Sequence record: OL770310
Length of the DNA stretch: 64,000 bases
Strand: one strand, 5' to 3'
Source: Escherichia phage PSa2
Of this stretch, positions 36,514 through 42,229 are shown one piece after another. The notes below the pieces were generated by a model. That model saw nothing but the letters and a program-made list of their open reading frames with translations. It was not told the DNA's origin and did no database searches. A program made the position numbers and the translations under genes. The number at the start of each line of letters is the position of its first letter. The first letter of the stretch is position 1.

Positions 36514-36520
36514 CAATAAA

Positions 36521-36555
36521 CCCCAGTGGACAATCCACTGGGGTTTTCTTTTATT
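36521..36555. terminator. bidirectional rho-independent terminator at the early/late convergence point
   Basis: CCCCAGTGG-ACAAT-CCACTGGGG hairpin flanked by an A-run and TTTTCTTTTATTT. Confidence 0.75.
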
Positions 36556-36596: not shown

Positions 36597-36611
36597 TTTT
36601 TTTTTTTTTTT
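36597..36611. repeat. T15 homopolymer followed by TGCATTTTGCATTTTGCGTTTT repeat
   Basis: Direct count of 15 consecutive T at 36597..36611. Confidence 0.8.
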
Positions 36612-36792
36612 GAGAGGGTGCAAAACGAACCTCTTGCATTTTGCATTTTGCGTTTTCATATTGTACATAAGAACAGCCTAAGAATCAGTGAACTGTTAAC
36701 ATAGCAGAACACGCGTTGCGTTGCTAGGATAATCAATGTTCAGGCTTGTTTCGCAGCAATATTTTTCAGTGACAGATTGCACTCCACTTATA

Positions 36793-39744
36793 TTACGGTA
36801 GTTCTGTAATTGTTGGAGCATTTCCGTTAAGCATTGATTTTACAAGGTTTTTCAGTTCATATAACTCATTGCGTAATACGTTAATTTCCTCCTGTTGATT
36901 ATCAATCTTTGCTTTTTGCTCTTTGAATGCGTTAACAAGAAGTGCGACAACACCATTATAGTTAATGCCTTTGATTGCCTCGCCTTTTGGGTCTAGCTGA
37001 CCATCGTTATTCAAAGAATGAACCGCTTCCGGCAAAACCCTTTCAACATCTTGTGCGATCAATCCAGCCTCAATACTATAAACGCTGTTTTCATCTTCAA
37101 TTAGATTGTTGCGCTTGTAGTAAGTATAACCAGTTAGATAATCAATTTTGTCGGATGCCGTTTCGATCTCTTTTAGATGTGCTTTTAATCTAATGTCAGA
37201 CCTGCTAACCCAATTTGATGCGCTACCATTTCCAGCACTATCAAAAACAAATTCAGCGCCATTAACATAAAGATGTGTTTCAGCGCCGCCAGAAGTCCAC
37301 GGAACAACATCCATGCCAGCTATCCAATCTTTCCCCCAATAAACAGATTTAAATATGGCAACCGCAGAATCAAATCCAGTGTGCTCAACAAGCAATCCAG
37401 ACGCACGACTACGCCAGTCGGCAAATAAACCACCCTCAACTTGACCAGCAATAAGAGCGTTTGGATAACCGCGCCTAACTCCATTTACATACATACCCCT
37501 TGCGTTATCATCAACATAAGATGATATGACCCTGTAAGTGTTTATTCCTGATGGAGTCCATGCAAATATTCTCGCTGAATCAGCAAACGCGCTTATGTGA
37601 CCATCACGATCCCATTTAAGACCTGAATCATGATCCCCAATTGCTATAGAGTAATCACCAAGAGCCGATTGAGCATCCGGACTTAATAACATCAATTGCC
37701 TATCAGATCTTGCTATCCTGTACCATCCACCCCAAGAGCCAGCACTACAAATGATACCCCATTTATTACCGTTCATTGCGGTTGCAACAATATTTCCATA
37801 CTCAACATGACCGTTTGCATTTTTACCGTGAACATGCAATTCATACATCCACCAACCAGAGGCTTCAGGTGGTTGATATGTAACAAGTTCTCCGCTTGAG
37901 TAATAACCGCTTTCTGCGTATGTTGACATAAACCCAAGAATGTTTGAATTATTAGGAATAATAATTGCTTGACCACCAACAGGAGTATTTAAGTTCTTTC
38001 TTGCTCCAACTTCAGTATTAGATCCAGTGCCGCCAGCATCAATTGAAAGAGGAATCCATCTTTCAGTTTCATCAGTCCAAACACCCCACGCCGCATCAGG
38101 TCTAATTGTGATTCGATAAGGTGAGTTACTCCCTGGTGCATACATCATAGTTTCTGTTTCTGTTTGCTTTAAACGATCAATGCCAAAGTTTATTTTTGCG
38201 CCCTCAACGTTTTCAGCACCAGTACCGCCAGCACCAATAGAAAGCGCAGATGTGCTGTTATTGTCATTACGCGCAACGCGCCATTCCCCATTGTTAGCGA
38301 TCCGTAATTCATAAGTCCATGCAGGATTACGAAAAGAATTATAAGCGCCAGCATATTGATCTTTTACAGAATTAACAGCCTCAACTTTTAGCGCCTCCCT
38401 TGCAAGGTCTTTGTTTGCAAGATCATTAAGATTCTGATCCTTCTTTAACGACGCTTGCATAACCTGTTCTGCTGATGCAGCCGCTGTCTCCGCTCTATCT
38501 GCTGCACTGGTGGCATTAGTAGCTTTCTCTCCTGCTATTGTAGCGCTACCAGCGGCCTCCAGGGCCTTGTCTGTTGCTGTCGTTGCAGCAGTAGTGGCGG
38601 TATTTTTAAATACCTCTGCTTCGTCTCTGTAGCCTTTGGTTGTGGTCATCGCTTGCGTAGCTGTATTCGCACTACCTGATGCACTTTGCTGAGCTAGCTT
38701 AGCAGCGTCTTCACTAGCTTTTGAGTTAATTTCACTAGTCTTTGTATTAGTTTCTGAGTTTTTTGCTGCTAATGCTGATGTGGAGGCTTGTGCAGCGAAT
38801 GCTTCTGCTTCATCCCTGAATCCTTTGGAGTCAGAAGCAGAGGCAGCGGAATCAGCAGCATTAGTCTCACTAGTTTTTGCTGCTGCTGCATATGCTGCTG
38901 CATTAGTCTCACTAGTTTTTGCATTAGTCTCACTAGTTTTTGCATTAATCTCACTAGTTTTTGCTGCAGCTGATGATTCTATAGCAGTAGTTTCACTAAT
39001 TTTTGCTGCAGCTGATGATTCTGCAGCTTTAGTAGCGGATGCAGCAGATTGAGAAGCAGAAATAGCAGACTGAGAAGCAGAAGCTTCAGAAGCTTCAGCA
39101 GAAATAGCAGATTCATTCTCAGAATTCTTAGCATTAAGTTCTGAAGTCTTAGCAGCTATCTCGGAGTCTTTTGCAGTAGTAGCGTATTCTCCCGCCTCTG
39201 TAGCAGAACCAGCAGCAGCAATAGCCTGATTGGTAGATTCAGTAGCAGATGTAGCAGCATTTTGCTCAGAAGTAGCAGCAGCAGTCTTAGCAGCCTCAGC
39301 GTCCTTCTTAGCTTGTTCAGCTAATAGACGACTCTGTTCAGCATTTTGTGCAGCAAGTTCAGCAGAATCACGGAATCCTTTGGATTCCTCAGCTGACGTA
39401 GCAGAGGCATCAGCACTATCTTTAGATAAACCAGCTTGTCTCTCCGCTTCAGTAGCAGAAGCAGCAGATTGAGTTGCAGAAGTTTCTGAAGAGTTAGCGT
39501 AAATTGCAGCTAGGTTCTCCGAGTCCTTAGCATTTGTTTCAGATTCTTTTGCTGCAATTTCAGAATCTTTTGCTGCTGCGGCAGAAGCAGCAGAGGCCTC
39601 AACAGCCCCTGTTAGTTCACTAGCAGTAATAGAACTAATAGAAGTACCTAAAACTACCGTATACTTAGGATATTTACTAGCAGTAGTTGTAGTGTCATCT
39701 ATGTTCAGAATCTGCTGTACAATAATTTTAGTTTTAAGTGCCAT
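36793..39744 (-). CDS. side (L-shaped-type) tail fibre with C-terminal intramolecular chaperone domain
   Basis: 983 aa; Ala/Ser/Thr-rich repeats (SETNAKTSETNAK), then SRSDIRLKAHL...chaperone-like C-terminus (S74-type SDxRxK motif). Confidence 0.75.
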   Translation of the reverse strand: MALKTKIIVQQILNIDDTTTTASKYPKYTVVLGTSISSITASELTGAVEASAASAAAAKDSEIAAKESETNAKDSENLAAIYANSSETSATQSAASATEAERQAGLSKDSADASATSAEESKGFRDSAELAAQNAEQSRLLAEQAKKDAEAAKTAAATSEQNAATSATESTNQAIAAAGSATEAGEYATTAKDSEIAAKTSELNAKNSENESAISAEASEASASQSAISASQSAASATKAAESSAAAKISETTAIESSAAAKTSEINAKTSETNAKTSETNAAAYAAAAKTSETNAADSAASASDSKGFRDEAEAFAAQASTSALAAKNSETNTKTSEINSKASEDAAKLAQQSASGSANTATQAMTTTKGYRDEAEVFKNTATTAATTATDKALEAAGSATIAGEKATNATSAADRAETAAASAEQVMQASLKKDQNLNDLANKDLAREALKVEAVNSVKDQYAGAYNSFRNPAWTYELRIANNGEWRVARNDNNSTSALSIGAGGTGAENVEGAKINFGIDRLKQTETETMMYAPGSNSPYRITIRPDAAWGVWTDETERWIPLSIDAGGTGSNTEVGARKNLNTPVGGQAIIIPNNSNILGFMSTYAESGYYSSGELVTYQPPEASGWWMYELHVHGKNANGHVEYGNIVATAMNGNKWGIICSAGSWGGWYRIARSDRQLMLLSPDAQSALGDYSIAIGDHDSGLKWDRDGHISAFADSARIFAWTPSGINTYRVISSYVDDNARGMYVNGVRRGYPNALIAGQVEGGLFADWRSRASGLLVEHTGFDSAVAIFKSVYWGKDWIAGMDVVPWTSGGAETHLYVNGAEFVFDSAGNGSASNWVSRSDIRLKAHLKEIETASDKIDYLTGYTYYKRNNLIEDENSVYSIEAGLIAQDVERVLPEAVHSLNNDGQLDPKGEAIKGINYNGVVALLVNAFKEQKAKIDNQQEEINVLRNELYELKNLVKSMLNGNAPTITELP
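38858..39027. repeat. tandem 21-bp coding repeats inside tail-fibre gene
   Basis: GCATTAGTCTCACTAGTTTTT at 38858, 38900, 38921, variant 38942; adjacent duplicated TTTTGCTGCAGCTGATGATTCT. Confidence 0.8.
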
Positions 39745-40166
39745 TATTGAGTTACTCCATCGCTGATGTATACTTTACCTTCCATAATACGGAAAGAATT
39801 GACTTCAGAGCCAATTACATCACGAGTCATTAGGATATCATAATAACCAGCAAAACGTTGTCTTGGGTTATACTTATCACGTTCTTTAGATGCTTTTTCA
39901 CCAATATTAGTAGTGTCTGCAATGGAAAGACTAATTGCAGCAGCACCTTGAGCAGCATCAATAACATGAGTTTTAAAATTAGCTAGAACCTCGGCGTTCT
40001 CATCTAAACTAGATTTAATAGTTCCTCTGAGTGAATACCCTGTCAAGTTAACAGGAAATTCTGTTGGCGGATATACGCTATCATCAACATCCATAAATTG
40101 CATGATAAGACTATAAGGCACTTTCTCATCAACAACAATATCAATAACTCGGTTTTCTGTACTCAT
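39744..40166 (-). CDS. small tail structural protein (collar-type by position)
   Basis: 140 aa ORF between the fibre and baseplate genes. Confidence 0.45.
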
Positions 40167-40171
40167 TATAA

Positions 40172-42229
40172 TTACCTTATATGGATATAGCCACTATTTA
40201 GGTCTATCTTCATCTTGTAGTATGCTTCAGGGTTTCCTGATAACGCAGCATTTCTATCGTAGATTATATTAACACCTATTTGTGATAAGAAGGCATTTCC
40301 TGCCACAATCTTATCAGCAGTTACAGTTCCATTAACAATCATGTTGCCATGAAGAACCATTGCAGGGTTAATCCATCCAGCCCCGTTCCATTGACGGGTA
40401 AATGCTGTTTGTGGAGCATTACTGTTAAATTGTGTTAGAACATCGTATTTAACCGGAGGTTTTCCAAAGTTATTTTGAAAGAATGCGTTAGCTTGTCCAT
40501 CATCCCAACCGCCTAATCCAGGAATACCCATGGAGTACATCCCAGGACCACGCTGTCCATCATGTCCTATAGTACCTTCAGTACCACTCCATTGAACTAC
40601 ATCAGACCAGCTAGTACCTTCAAGAAGTTTGTTAGTAACTGGATCAAGTGTACCTGTAGTCGCATAGATATTTTGTGTCATATCTGTACGATTAGGTGGA
40701 GTTTTTGACCAACCAGGAGGTGGATAATCTTGTTCTAACGGTTTGGCCGGTAAAGATGTTGCTAACTTATAAACAAATACTGTTTGCTTACCTTGTAAAC
40801 CAGTTCCAATATCTACGTCACCATTTGGTGTTCCAATTACTACACCACTAGAAATACGCAGAGTAGTACCATCATAACGTATCCATTGTGTAGCATTACC
40901 AATATCTAACTTAGCTTTGGCAGAGGTATTATCCATACCCATCCAAATACCAGAGTTATTATCTCCCCAAGATTTACCTTGAGTATAAATTGCTGGATTA
41001 TCTTTACCAGATAAGTTAGTCATGATAAAGTTCGCAGCATTAATATCTCTAGTAATTACTTTACCATCGACGTTAACAACACGATTTATAGGGTCGAAAG
41101 AAATAGGTGCTTTTCCTTCTTCATCTAGCAGACCAATGTTAATAGCACCAGTAGCTGCATCAATTAAGAATGTCTGTCTCCAGATTTCTCCATCTTTCAT
41201 ACTACCCTTAATAAAGGCATAGTTAACATCAATACCAGTCTCATTGACAAAACTATTATCTAGAGGAGTATCTTCATTCAATATAAATGTTACAGGAGCT
41301 GATTCTGTTATATCTTGCTTATTTGGTCCCCAGGCAATTGATGAAACCTTAAAGGTATGTTCAACTTTCCATGGGAATGATATAATCGTTGCAGCTCTAG
41401 CAGCACCCACGTTTATCTTTTGAGCTTTAGCCCATCCGGTTTTAGCGTATTCCTCGGAGTTTATATAAGTAACCAAGAACTCACGAACGTTAGCACCAGC
41501 ACCACGTTCCCAGTCCCACTCAATTCTAACATCATATCGTTCTTTACCATCAGCAATTCGTGCAGCTTTAAAAACAATATCGATAGGTGCAGTAGGAGGA
41601 ACAAAATTATAAGCTACAGTTAGAATATTAGGGAACTCATAGTACCCAGAAGAATCAACTGTAACACCATCAGGCATAGTTACTTGACCAGATATTCTGA
41701 TCTTATAGTCTCCGATAGGAACTCCACCAAATTTAATAGTAGAACCTAAAGCCCCAATATAATATTTAGTCCAAGGACTGTCTTCAGTGGCTGTACTTTT
41801 TAACTCAATAGTACAGTAACTTGCTTCACCAGTTGTTTCCACAACAACTATCGGTGCGCCCACCCCAACATCCACAGGTTCTGACTCAGATCTTGCTGCA
41901 ACAATTATTGGCTTCTCTTTTGTTTTAAAGTTAGTTTCATTAGAGAGGTTAATACCAATTTTTGCATTTAAAAGTTCTGAGTCAATAATTGAGTCATAAA
42001 AAGCTCCCTGAACCTGATAGGTAGTTGAGGGAGCTAAATTATTGATCATAACAAAGAAAGTGTCGATTCCAGTGAAATCTCTTCTATCCACTTCTTCGCC
42101 AAGTTTAAGCCAGAATGATCTACCGATAACATCGTAGTCGGTATAGATAGAATGCTGGATATACGCCATCGTATACCCAGTCATAATACTATTTAAGACC
42201 ATCTTGGCTGGTGCATTATTCGAAATCAT
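40172..42229 (-). CDS. baseplate/central fibre protein (pb4-like by size and position)
   Basis: 685 aa, Gly/Thr/Asn-rich, downstream of the hub gene. Confidence 0.55.

What the first reader, a model, noticed from the sequence alone, without database searches (positions are those of the whole stretch)
38858..39027. In-frame tandem 21-bp repeats in the tail-fibre gene
Four near-identical 21-bp units (GCATTAGTCTCACTAGTTTTT; TSETNAK heptads on the coding strand) plus a duplicated 22-mer sit inside the fibre shaft region. Such repeats allow in-frame expansion or contraction by slippage or recombination, changing fibre length, and explain the long antisense ORFs here.
Basis: seen in the sequence. 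Interest (0 to 1): 0.45.

Follow-up and report, generated by a model that had tools for sequence, protein, structure and literature searches.

The report
Heptad repeats in phage tail-fibre shaft
The 21-base repeats are real: they are recently duplicated seven-residue units in the coiled-coil stalk of a T5-like phage's side tail fibre, related phages carry different numbers of them, and this is an ordinary, well-understood way for fibrous proteins to change length.

Summary
The window is an Epseptimavirus (EPS7/T5-like phage). The repeats lie in the L-shaped (lateral) tail-fibre gene, 36793..39744 on the minus strand, 983 aa.

- **Repeat units.** Three exact copies of GCATTAGTCTCACTAGTTTTT, one copy with a single mismatch and one degenerate copy encode AKTSETN-type heptads. 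An exact 23-mer is duplicated 42 bp apart.
- **Context.** These units are 5-8 of 35 heptads in unbroken register (aa 58-302, small Ala/Ser residues at the core positions) in a predicted alpha-helical shaft. The homologous DT57C LtfA N-terminus is a trimeric coiled coil by cryo-EM.
- **Recent origin.** The unit copies are identical at every synonymous site.
- **Variation among relatives.** Array changes of -28, -14, +7 and +36 aa occur, and tandem unit counts run from 1 to 5. Larger in-register deletions of 112 and 133 aa occur between dispersed repeats. Twelve of 14 shaft gaps are multiples of 7 aa.
- **Stability.** 27 of 30 near-identical phages share the window allele, so this is a slow mutational hotspot, not a switch.
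- **Antisense ORFs.** They are by-products of Ala/Ser/Thr/Glu codon composition across the whole shaft.

Public records already annotate repeat_region features at these coordinates. Interest is low. One side observation: phage STyj5-1 has a +1 frameshift in an A5 tract inside this array.

The parts
36793..39744 (-). L-shaped (lateral) tail-fibre gene, 983 aa, homologue of T5 pb1/Ltf and DT57C LtfA
   Evidence: ORF. PHROG tail-fibre families. 99.5-99.7% DNA identity to the tail-fibre genes of Salmonella phages 3-29, BSP22A, Seafire, BD13 and EPS7. Residues 1-205 match DT57C LtfA chain 8hqz_d at E about 1e-63.
38407..39624 (-). Predicted alpha-helical shaft, aa 41-446: three long helices with breaks at aa 179-188 and 304-309
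   Evidence: AlphaFold2 monomer model gives helices 41-178, 189-303 and 310-446, with pLDDT 77-84 over the array. In DT57C LtfA the helix starts at T40 and forms a three-helix coiled coil (PMC10713586).
38839..39573 (-). 35 heptads in one unbroken register (aa 58-302): first core position Ala/Ser in 35 of 35, second core position Ser in 26 of 35
   Evidence: Heptad table and lag-7 autocorrelation, z = 10.3 against shuffles; the signal is also present upstream of the array.
38855..39033 (-). The repeat array of the finding: period 21 bp, nested in a period of 42 bp; encodes AESSAAAKISETTAIESSAAAKTSEINAKTSETNAKTSETNAAAYAAAAKTSETNA
38900..38962 (-). Three directly tandem 21-bp units (two exact, one with one mismatch) encoding AKTSEIN-AKTSETN-AKTSETN. 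GenBank record MT074450 (faergetype) annotates a repeat_region at the equivalent of 38899-38963.
   Evidence: annotation.
38858..38878 (-). Fourth exact 21-bp unit (AKTSETN), separated from the tandem block by the AAAYAAA unit at 38879-38899
38958..38980 (-). First copy of the exact 23-mer (ESSAAAK coding). S.Kent 1-2-1, phagemcphageface and falkor lack the 42 bp between the two copies.
39000..39022 (-). Second copy of the exact 23-mer
39049..39174 (-). Dispersed 126-nt direct repeat, copy 1 (AKDSEIAAKTSELNAKNSEN... region)
   Evidence: the repeat finder family D3, 71% identical to copy 2, spacing 399 bp. Phage bombadil lacks exactly 399 bp (133 aa) between the two copies.
39448..39573 (-). 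Dispersed 126-nt direct repeat, copy 2
37018..37200 (-). C-terminal Peptidase_S74 intramolecular chaperone domain (aa 849-909)
   Evidence: Pfam PF13884, E = 1.6e-10. Residues 848-971 match PDB 6f45_A.
39744..40166 (-). Collar protein (T5 p132 / LtfC) to which the fibre N-terminus attaches
   Evidence: Pfam PF23926 LtfC; PHROG collar protein.
38693..39049 (+). Longest antisense stop-free run in the gene (119 codons; the 90-aa ORF 38780..39052). A by-product, not a gene.
   Evidence: No antisense CDS appears among the features listed under the match for the 40 records shown, nor in the feature tables opened.

Best explanation
The feature is a short array of recently duplicated, heptad-encoding 21-bp units, organised in 42-bp dimers. 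It lies in the long alpha-helical, most likely trimeric coiled-coil, proximal shaft of the lateral tail fibre of an EPS7-like phage.

The shaft is one continuous run of 35 heptads with small Ala/Ser residues at the core positions. Adding or removing whole heptads therefore keeps the coiled-coil register and is structurally tolerated. Misalignment between the near-identical DNA units, by replication slippage or unequal homologous recombination, occasionally makes in-frame length alleles. Selection lets those through if they are multiples of 7 aa.

The same process acts between more distant, less similar heptad-coding repeats and produces 112- and 133-aa shaft deletions. The array is thus a passive mutational hotspot that changes on the timescale of phage diversification. 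It changes the reach of the fibre by about 1 nm per unit. It is not a fast programmed switch.

Shown: the repeats, the heptad register, helix prediction, homology to a solved coiled-coil N-terminus, natural copy-number alleles with in-register breakpoints, and the stability of the allele in most close relatives.

Inferred: trimeric coiled-coil structure at the array itself, the molecular route (slippage or recombination), and any effect on fibre length or adsorption.
For: - Repeats far exceed chance.
- The units are identical at synonymous sites. All other heptad pairs have a median of 9 of 21 identical bases.
- Heptad register: 35 unbroken heptads; core positions Ala/Ser 35/35 and Ser 26/35; lag-7 z = 10.3.
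- AlphaFold2 predicts a helix through the array with pLDDT 77-84.
- Residues 1-205 are homologous to DT57C LtfA. Its helix from T40 is a three-helix coiled coil by cryo-EM (PMC10713586).
- An independent AlphaFold2 reading describes BD13 pb1 as having a long coiled-coil domain (bioRxiv 10.1101/2024.03.13.584857). BD13 pb1 is 99.6% identical in DNA to the window gene.
- Natural alleles at the array: -28, -14, +7, +36 and -5 aa, and 3 against 5 tandem units with an ABABC codon pattern.
- Large in-register deletions: bombadil, 133 aa = 19 heptads, equal to the 399-bp spacing of the 126-nt repeats; S147, 112 aa = 16 heptads.
- 12 of 14 shaft gaps are multiples of 7 aa, where 1 in 7 is expected for in-frame indels.
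- Precedent: a laboratory-selected DT571/2 mutant gained an extra copy of a different (19-aa) tandem motif in LtfA (PMC4728585).
Against: - No reads or passage data are available, so instability within a population is untested.
- Two alleles are not multiples of 7 aa (8sent65, -5 aa; Shin27, +36 aa). A strict heptad-register filter does not predict these, and they may be assembly errors.
- The cryo-EM model of the homologue resolves only the N-terminal part of LtfA. Molecular-dynamics restraints in that paper name residues 43-52 as the super-helical C-terminal fragment. Coiled-coil structure at aa 246-302 is therefore an extrapolation.
- The AlphaFold2 model is a monomer with pTM 0.26.
- An Ala/Ser core is atypical for classical coiled coils.
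Confidence: 0.85

Rival explanations
1. The array mainly serves as a homologous crossover point for exchanging fibre modules between co-infecting T5-like phages. Its main consequence would then be mosaicism of the shaft and tip, not length change. This complements the best explanation more than it excludes it.
For: - Homology blocks between the window gene and S114, S133, chee130_1, chee158 and saus132 end at window 38964-39006, at the N-terminal edge of the array. Upstream of that point those phages carry a different, KTSETNA-rich shaft module.
- KxSExxA heptads occur 2-19 times in T5-like lateral fibres generally.
- Recombination with cloned fibre segments is efficient in these phages: about 1e-4 in DT57C and DT571/2 (PMC4728585).
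Against: - Only a few junctions were examined, and junction positions in low-complexity sequence are imprecise.
- The alleles in near-identical backgrounds (ZBSTP12, MET_P1_137_112, Shin27; 100% identity in the aligned shaft columns) are simple intragenic gains or losses, with no imported sequence.
Confidence: 0.25
2. The array is a programmed contingency locus. It would give high-frequency reversible changes in copy number, or frameshifts in its A5 tracts, that tune or switch the lateral fibres as an adaptive strategy against variable O-antigen.
For: - Copy number varies among relatives.
- Each unit contains an A5 tract. In phage STyj5-1 an extra A in one of these tracts splits the fibre gene.
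- Lateral fibres are dispensable on rough hosts but matter on O-antigen-bearing hosts (PMC10713586).
Against: - 27 of 30 distinct phages of the near-identical lineage, isolated in many countries, share one allele.
- 21-bp units in 3-5 copies and A5 tracts are far below the repeat numbers of classical contingency loci (general knowledge).
- The single frameshift could be a sequencing error. EPS7 has a comparable 1-bp change in a G5 run far from the array.
Confidence: 0.05
3. The repeated AKTSETN units are kept for a sequence-specific role, such as a docking site for another virion protein or a chaperone, or direct binding to the cell surface. Their number would then reflect valency, not length.
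For: - The motif is conserved and recurrent in many T5-like fibres.
- A second-hand report says the N-terminal part of BD13 pb1 determines host interaction (bioRxiv 10.1101/2024.03.13.584857).
- In DT57C, LtfB docks on LtfA (PMC4728585).
Against: - ZBSTP12 has one hybrid unit (ISETNAA) in place of the tandem block, plus the separate downstream AKTSETN unit.
- DT57C LtfA lacks the whole segment corresponding to aa 205-396.
- The units fit the same Ala/Ser-core heptad pattern as the other 30 heptads, which have different surface residues.
- The BD13/STyj5-1 result may be explained by repair of a frameshift.
Confidence: 0.07
4. The copy-number differences among database records are assembly artefacts of short-read sequencing across repeats, and the true locus is invariant.
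For: Two alleles break the heptad rule (8sent65 -5 aa; Shin27 +36 aa, which involves a duplication of about 110 bp that is close to short-read length).
Against: - The arrays are 63-105 bp, shorter than typical reads.
- The same -42 bp allele appears in independent records from different laboratories: phagemcphageface, falkor and S.Kent 1-2-1.
- Breakpoints are clean and in frame.
- The large deletions in bombadil and S147 lie between repeats only 71% identical, which assemblers do not collapse.
Confidence: 0.03

Closest known systems
DT57C LtfA / T5 pb1 (Ltf) lateral tail fibre, N-terminal trimeric coiled coil (PDB 8HQZ; PMC10713586)
   Same: Homologous N-terminus (aa 1-205, E about 1e-63). 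Same collar partner (LtfC/p132) and same gene order next to pb4. The helix starts at residue 40-41 and forms a three-helix bundle projecting from the collar.
   Different: DT57C LtfA lacks the segment equivalent to aa 205-396 of this protein, including the AKTSETN array. DT57C has a branched two-protein fibre (PMC4728585). The cryo-EM model covers only the N-terminal part of LtfA.
Tandem 19-aa motif block in DT57C and DT571/2 LtfA (VDSALADKADIATTYTKME), with a copy gained in a laboratory mutant (PMC4728585)
   Same: In-frame tandem repeats inside a T5-like lateral fibre gene. Copy number changed during selection, which shows that such repeats do expand in this gene family.
   Different: A different motif, period (19 aa, not a heptad) and position (aa 478-542, distal to the coiled coil). 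The authors suggested the gain compensated for loss of LtfB.
Proximal coiled-coil domain of the Ur-lambda side tail fibre Stf (residues 102-393; PMC12617516)
   Same: A long coiled-coil proximal arm linking a collar-binding N-terminal domain to a distal receptor-binding part in a siphophage accessory fibre that speeds adsorption.
   Different: No detectable sequence-family link was tested or found here: no Pfam or NCBIfam model matched the shaft. Whether its heptads are encoded by DNA repeats was not examined.
T4 fibritin (gpwac), a segmented coiled coil whose length differs among T4-type phages (Letarov et al. 2005, listed as reference 35 of PMC10713586; the content is from my own knowledge)
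   Same: A trimeric phage coiled-coil fibre whose length evolves by gain and loss of coiled-coil segments.
   Different: An unrelated protein with a classical hydrophobic core and segments separated by loops. Not compared by any tool here.
Size-variable coiled-coil surface proteins encoded by tandem DNA repeats, such as streptococcal M protein; and the adenovirus fibre shaft with a variable number of repeats (own knowledge, not tested here)
   Same: In-frame tandem repeats encoding a periodic fibrous structure. Intragenic recombination gives length variants that keep the structural register.
   Different: Different organisms, folds (the adenovirus shaft is a beta-spiral) and selective pressures (immune evasion for M protein).

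Membership tests
T5-like L-shaped/lateral tail fibre (pb1 / Ltf / LtfA) | N-terminal collar-attachment region homologous to LtfA/pb1 | tested here: met
   Residues 1-205 match 8hqz_d (DT57C LtfA) at E = 1.7e-63 to 6.8e-64. phrog_24369 (profile length 1396) matches aa 3-211.
T5-like L-shaped/lateral tail fibre (pb1 / Ltf / LtfA) | Gene lies directly downstream of the collar gene (p132/LtfC) and the straight-fibre gene pb4 | tested here: met
   Pfam LtfC on 39744..40166 and the four PB4 domains on 40172..42229. Same order in all annotated relatives.
T5-like L-shaped/lateral tail fibre (pb1 / Ltf / LtfA) | C-terminal intramolecular chaperone (Peptidase_S74) that is cleaved off after trimerisation | tested here: met
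   The domain is present: PF13884 at aa 849-909, E = 1.6e-10. Cleavage itself cannot be tested with these tools.
Alpha-helical coiled coil (trimeric) | Heptad periodicity with consistent core (a/d) positions | tested here: met
   35 unbroken heptads; core positions Ala/Ser 35/35 and Ser 26/35; lag-7, -14, -21 and -28 autocorrelation z = 10.3, 10.3, 6.7 and 5.4.
Alpha-helical coiled coil (trimeric) | Helical secondary structure across the array | tested here: met
   AlphaFold2 helix 189-303, pLDDT 77-84.
Alpha-helical coiled coil (trimeric) | Three parallel chains wound together at the array itself | not testable with these tools
   Only monomer prediction is available. [quoted passage not shown]
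Pfam tail-fibre repeat families (e.g. Phage_fiber_2) | Match to a curated repeat model | tested here: not met
   No Pfam family at E up to 10 on aa 1-448. No NCBIfam family at E up to 0.1.
Repeat-mediated length-polymorphic fibrous protein | In-frame tandem DNA repeats whose period equals the structural period | tested here: met
   21 bp = 7 aa = one heptad.
Repeat-mediated length-polymorphic fibrous protein | Natural alleles differing by whole repeat units, with breakpoints in register | tested here: met
   ZBSTP12 -84 bp; MET_P1_137_112 +21 bp; S.Kent 1-2-1, phagemcphageface and falkor -42 bp; SE7 with 5 units against 3.
Contingency (phase-variable) locus | High-frequency, reversible repeat-number change seen among near-clonal isolates | tested here: not met
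   27 of 30 distinct phages at 97.7% identity or more share one allele. Frequency within a population was not testable.
Contingency (phase-variable) locus | Repeat unit or homopolymer whose slippage switches the reading frame on and off | tested here: inconclusive
   The 21-bp unit is in frame. The A5 tracts inside the units could frameshift, and one record (STyj5-1) has A6 there. That is a single case and could be a sequencing error.

The most novel reading that the evidence does not exclude
The array would be a functional tuning and on/off site for the lateral fibres. Heptad gain and loss would adjust the reach of the fibre to O-antigen layers of different thickness. Slippage in the A5 tract present in every unit would switch the fibre off.

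On this reading, the published finding that the N-terminal part of BD13 pb1 widens the host range and speeds the adsorption of phage STyj5-1 reflects repair of an A5-to-A6 frameshift that lies inside this array in the deposited STyj5-1 genome. It would not reflect a receptor-binding function of the shaft.
Probability: 0.1. Interest if true: 0.5.

Novelty: new member of a known kind. Interest (0 to 1): 0.2.

Why it matters
It matters only modestly.

- It documents, for a widely isolated group of Salmonella and E. coli phages used in biocontrol work, that the lateral-fibre shaft is a register-preserving heptad array. Its length drifts by repeat-mediated indels of 1-5 units locally and up to 19 heptads between dispersed repeats.
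- This is useful for annotation. The antisense ORFs and alternative-frame ORFs here are not genes.
- It is useful for assembly quality control of these genomes.
- It is useful for fibre engineering. Heptad boundaries are natural, tolerated splice points for chimeric fibres.
- The STyj5-1 frameshift suggests a simple re-reading of a published host-range engineering result. That is cheap to test.

Tried and rejected
1. **Protein database census.** The search with the shaft returned only divergent T5-like fibres. I used GenBank phage records instead.
2. **IMG/VR loci.** These gave only one close relative (L009, same allele). The rest were too divergent for copy-number comparison, although they did show that KxSExxA heptads are widespread.
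3. **Exact-pattern scans of IMG/VR for unit junctions.** I searched for A6, A4 and A5 variants of the junction. The patterns are short, hits were mostly in unrelated contigs, and the scans were uninformative.
4. **Family searches on the shaft.** Pfam and NCBIfam found nothing, so there is no curated family to file the repeat under.
5. **Literature searches.** I found no paper describing this heptad array or its polymorphism in Epseptimavirus. The one paper holding all three terms concerned other repeats.
6. **The primary BD13/STyj5-1 paper (PMC9469705).** It is not held, so its claims are cited second-hand only.
7. **A regulatory DNA or RNA role.** I considered this and rejected it. The array is wholly inside a long ORF, the promoter- and terminator-like hits there are at background level, and variation follows protein register.
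8. **EPS7's 1-bp length difference.** I checked whether it lies in the array. It does not; it is in a G5 run at about 37337.
Full report
**What the window is**

The 2952-bp ORF 36793..39744 on the minus strand (983 aa) is 99.5-99.7% identical in DNA to the tail-fibre genes of Salmonella phages 3-29, BSP22A, Seafire and BD13 and of Escherichia phage EPS7. All are Epseptimavirus (Demerecviridae, T5-like; taxonomy lines). Upstream on the same strand lie the collar protein (Pfam LtfC) and the straight-fibre protein pb4 (four PB4 domains). The protein ends in a Peptidase_S74 intramolecular chaperone (aa 849-909). Its first 205 residues match DT57C LtfA (PDB 8HQZ) at E about 1e-63.

**Checking the observation**

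The 21-mer GCATTAGTCTCACTAGTTTTT is present at these positions:
- exactly at 38858, 38900 and 38921;
- with one mismatch at 38942;
- with three mismatches at 38984.

That is 5 matches against 0.01 expected. Tandem Repeats Finder gives a period-21 array (38858-38964) nested in a period-42 array (38855-39033, 4.3 copies). An exact 23-mer, not a 22-mer, is duplicated at 38958 and 39000.

On the coding (minus) strand the region reads AESSAAAK ISETTAI ESSAAAK TSEINAK TSETNAK TSETNAA AYAAAAK TSETNAA. Three units are directly tandem. The fourth is separated from them by the AAAYAAA unit.

The three AKTSETN units are identical at all 21 bases, including the less-used AGT serine codon (20% of this gene's Ser codons; most other heptads use TCN). 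The probability that one such heptad uses exactly these codons is about 0.004 under the gene's codon usage. All other heptad pairs in the shaft share a median of 9 of 21 bases. The units are recent duplicates or have been homogenised by conversion.

**What the repeats are part of**

Written in sevens from residue 58, the protein keeps one unbroken register for 35 heptads (aa 58-302). One core position is Ala or Ser in 35 of 35 heptads. The other, three residues on, is Ser in 26 of 35. Sequence autocorrelation peaks at lags 7, 14, 21 and 28 (z = 10.3, 10.3, 6.7, 5.4). The peak is equally strong in the part upstream of the array (z = 7.5 at lag 7) and absent in the distal half of the protein.

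An AlphaFold2 monomer model predicts three long helices: 41-178, 189-303 and 310-446. pLDDT is 77-84 across the array. The breaks fall at a Gly-containing stretch and at SDSKGF just after the array.

In the cryo-EM structure of DT57C, the homologous LtfA helix starts at T40. Three such helices form a coiled coil that projects radially from the collar, and only the N-terminal part was resolved (PMC10713586). [quoted passage not shown]

The array is therefore best read as 5-8 heptads of a shaft of about 400 helical residues, roughly 60 nm if fully extended. That length is my inference from about 0.15 nm rise per residue.

**Does copy number vary?**

Yes. Among GenBank phages, 171 records match the 901 bp around the array.

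In the near-identical lineage (97.7% identity or more), 27 distinct phages have the window allele and three do not:

| Phage | Change at the array | Detail |
|---|---|---|
| ZBSTP12 | -84 bp | A hybrid unit ATTAGTGA\|GACTAATGCAGCA joins the ISETTAI unit to the last tandem unit |
| MET_P1_137_112 | +21 bp | Units read EIN-ETN-EIN-ETN |
| Shin27 | +108 bp | A duplication of nearly the whole array |

In the sister lineage (about 93% identity):
- SE7, oselot and others have five tandem units with alternating codon variants (ABABC).
- phagemcphageface and falkor have three units (ABC), a 42-bp difference.
- S.Kent 1-2-1 lacks exactly the 42 bp between the duplicated 23-mers.
- 8sent65 is 15 bp shorter, with an extra GCAAAA.

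The shaft also shows large in-register deletions:
- bombadil lacks 399 bp (133 aa = 19 heptads). This equals the spacing of the two 126-nt dispersed repeats at 39049 and 39448.
- S147 lacks 112 aa (16 heptads).

Of 14 gaps found in the heptad region, 12 are multiples of 7 aa, where one in seven would be expected. The exceptions, 8sent65 and Shin27, may be real coiled-coil discontinuities or assembly errors.

**Mechanism**

The data fit misalignment between near-identical heptad-coding DNA units, by slippage or unequal recombination. A structural filter then passes whole-heptad changes, because they keep the coiled-coil register. The two molecular routes cannot be separated from sequence.

Stability of one allele in 27 of 30 close relatives from many countries argues against a fast, programmed switch.

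Homology blocks with S114, chee130_1 and their relatives end at 38964-39006, the edge of the array. Upstream of that point those phages carry a different, KTSETNA-rich shaft module. The array probably also serves as a crossover point for module exchange.

There is an experimental precedent for repeat gain in this gene family. A selected DT571/2 mutant acquired an extra copy of a 19-aa tandem motif in LtfA (PMC4728585).

**Antisense ORFs**

The unit lacks stop codons in two plus-strand frames and in one alternative minus-strand frame. As a result the longest antisense stop-free run of the gene (38693-39049, 119 codons) spans the array. However, 80-codon antisense runs also occur at 39230-39469 and 39503-39742, outside the array. 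In one antisense frame, stop density across the shaft is 2.0 per 100 codons, against about 5 in the distal half. The shaft is 30% Ala, 15% Ser, 11% Thr and 11% Glu. The ORFs are by-products of composition. No antisense CDS appears among the features listed under the match for the 40 records shown, nor in the feature tables I opened.

**Comparison with known systems and novelty**

The protein is a member of the T5-like lateral fibre family; all testable defining features were met. No curated Pfam or NCBIfam model covers the shaft.

The behaviour belongs to a familiar class: fibrous proteins whose structural period is encoded by in-frame DNA repeats and whose length drifts by unit gain and loss. 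Examples are T4 fibritin segments, streptococcal M protein and the adenovirus fibre shaft (from my own knowledge), and the Ur-lambda Stf proximal coiled coil (PMC12617516).

GenBank records for faergetype, fuchur and oselot already carry repeat_region features at exactly these coordinates. I found no paper describing the polymorphism. It is therefore a new, unremarkable member of a known kind.

**A side observation worth a cheap test**

In the deposited genome of phage STyj5-1, the fibre gene differs from SE7's by four substitutions and one extra A. The extra A lies in the A5 tract between units 2 and 3 of this array, and it splits the gene into two annotated CDS.

STyj5-1 is the narrow-host-range parent in a published engineering study. 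In that study, swapping in parts of BD13 pb1 widened host range and improved adsorption (reviews PMC13517834 and PMC10264812). The N-terminal region was reported as the determinant (second-hand). The primary paper was not available.

If the frameshift is real, the swap may simply have repaired a broken shaft. It could equally be a homopolymer sequencing error. EPS7 shows a similar 1-bp difference in a G5 run elsewhere in the gene.

**Verdict**

The feature is ordinary. Interest 0.2.

Noticed in passing
L054 (MW423798.1, Salmonella phage STyj5-1), locus 2954-2988; equivalent to the unit junctions in window 38900-38962: The lateral-fibre gene is split into two annotated CDS by one extra A in the A5 tract (GCAAAAACT to GCAAAAAACT) between heptad units 2 and 3. 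Otherwise it differs from SE7's gene by only 4 mismatches. STyj5-1 is the narrow-host-range parent whose host range was widened by swapping in BD13 pb1 segments, so the swap may have repaired a frameshift. It could also be a sequencing error.
   Followed up: partly
window 39049-39174 and 39448-39573: Two 126-nt dispersed direct repeats, 71% identical and 399 bp apart. Phage bombadil (L053) lacks exactly 399 bp (133 aa = 19 heptads) between them. Phage S147 (L051) has a separate 112-aa in-register shaft deletion.
   Followed up: yes
window 39043-39082, 39537-39576, 38710-38754: Three more short period-21 tandem duplications in the same shaft (about 2 copies each). They encode SQSAISA/SQSAASA-type, AAKDSEI/AAKESET and NTKTSEI/NSKASED-type heptads. 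The first two are annotated as repeat_region in faergetype.
   Followed up: partly
window ~37337 (G5 run); L055 (NC_010583.1, EPS7): The EPS7 reference genome has G4 instead of G5 here. This truncates its annotated tail-fibre CDS to 807 aa. It is either a sequencing error or a fibre-defective laboratory stock.
   Followed up: partly
window 36518-36546: A perfect 13-bp-stem hairpin with T-runs on both strands, that is a bidirectional terminator. It lies between the convergent tail-fibre gene and the plus-strand dUTPase-side genes. A 14-base A-run lies just upstream of it at about 36597-36610.
   Followed up: no
window ~36696-36821 (minus strand): Some records (SuperGirl bas29_0021, SB13 gp022) annotate a 41-aa ORF overlapping the 3' end of the fibre gene, and another tiny ORF downstream, as 'tail fiber protein' or hypothetical. 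These are probably over-annotation.
   Followed up: no
fibre protein aa 121-126, 306-311, 370-375 (window ~39367-39384, ~38812-38829, ~38620-38637): The motif SKGFRD / TKGYRDEAE recurs three times in the shaft. AlphaFold2 breaks the helix only at the second copy, immediately C-terminal to the array. That break may be a hinge of the L-shaped fibre.
   Followed up: no
fibre protein from about aa 520 (window below ~38190); L003, L006: The distal, presumed receptor-binding part is mosaic. MET_P1_137_112 and S114 diverge sharply from the window protein from about residue 520, while their shafts are near-identical. MET_P1_137_112 also has a 9-bp ATN duplication after residue 407.
   Followed up: partly
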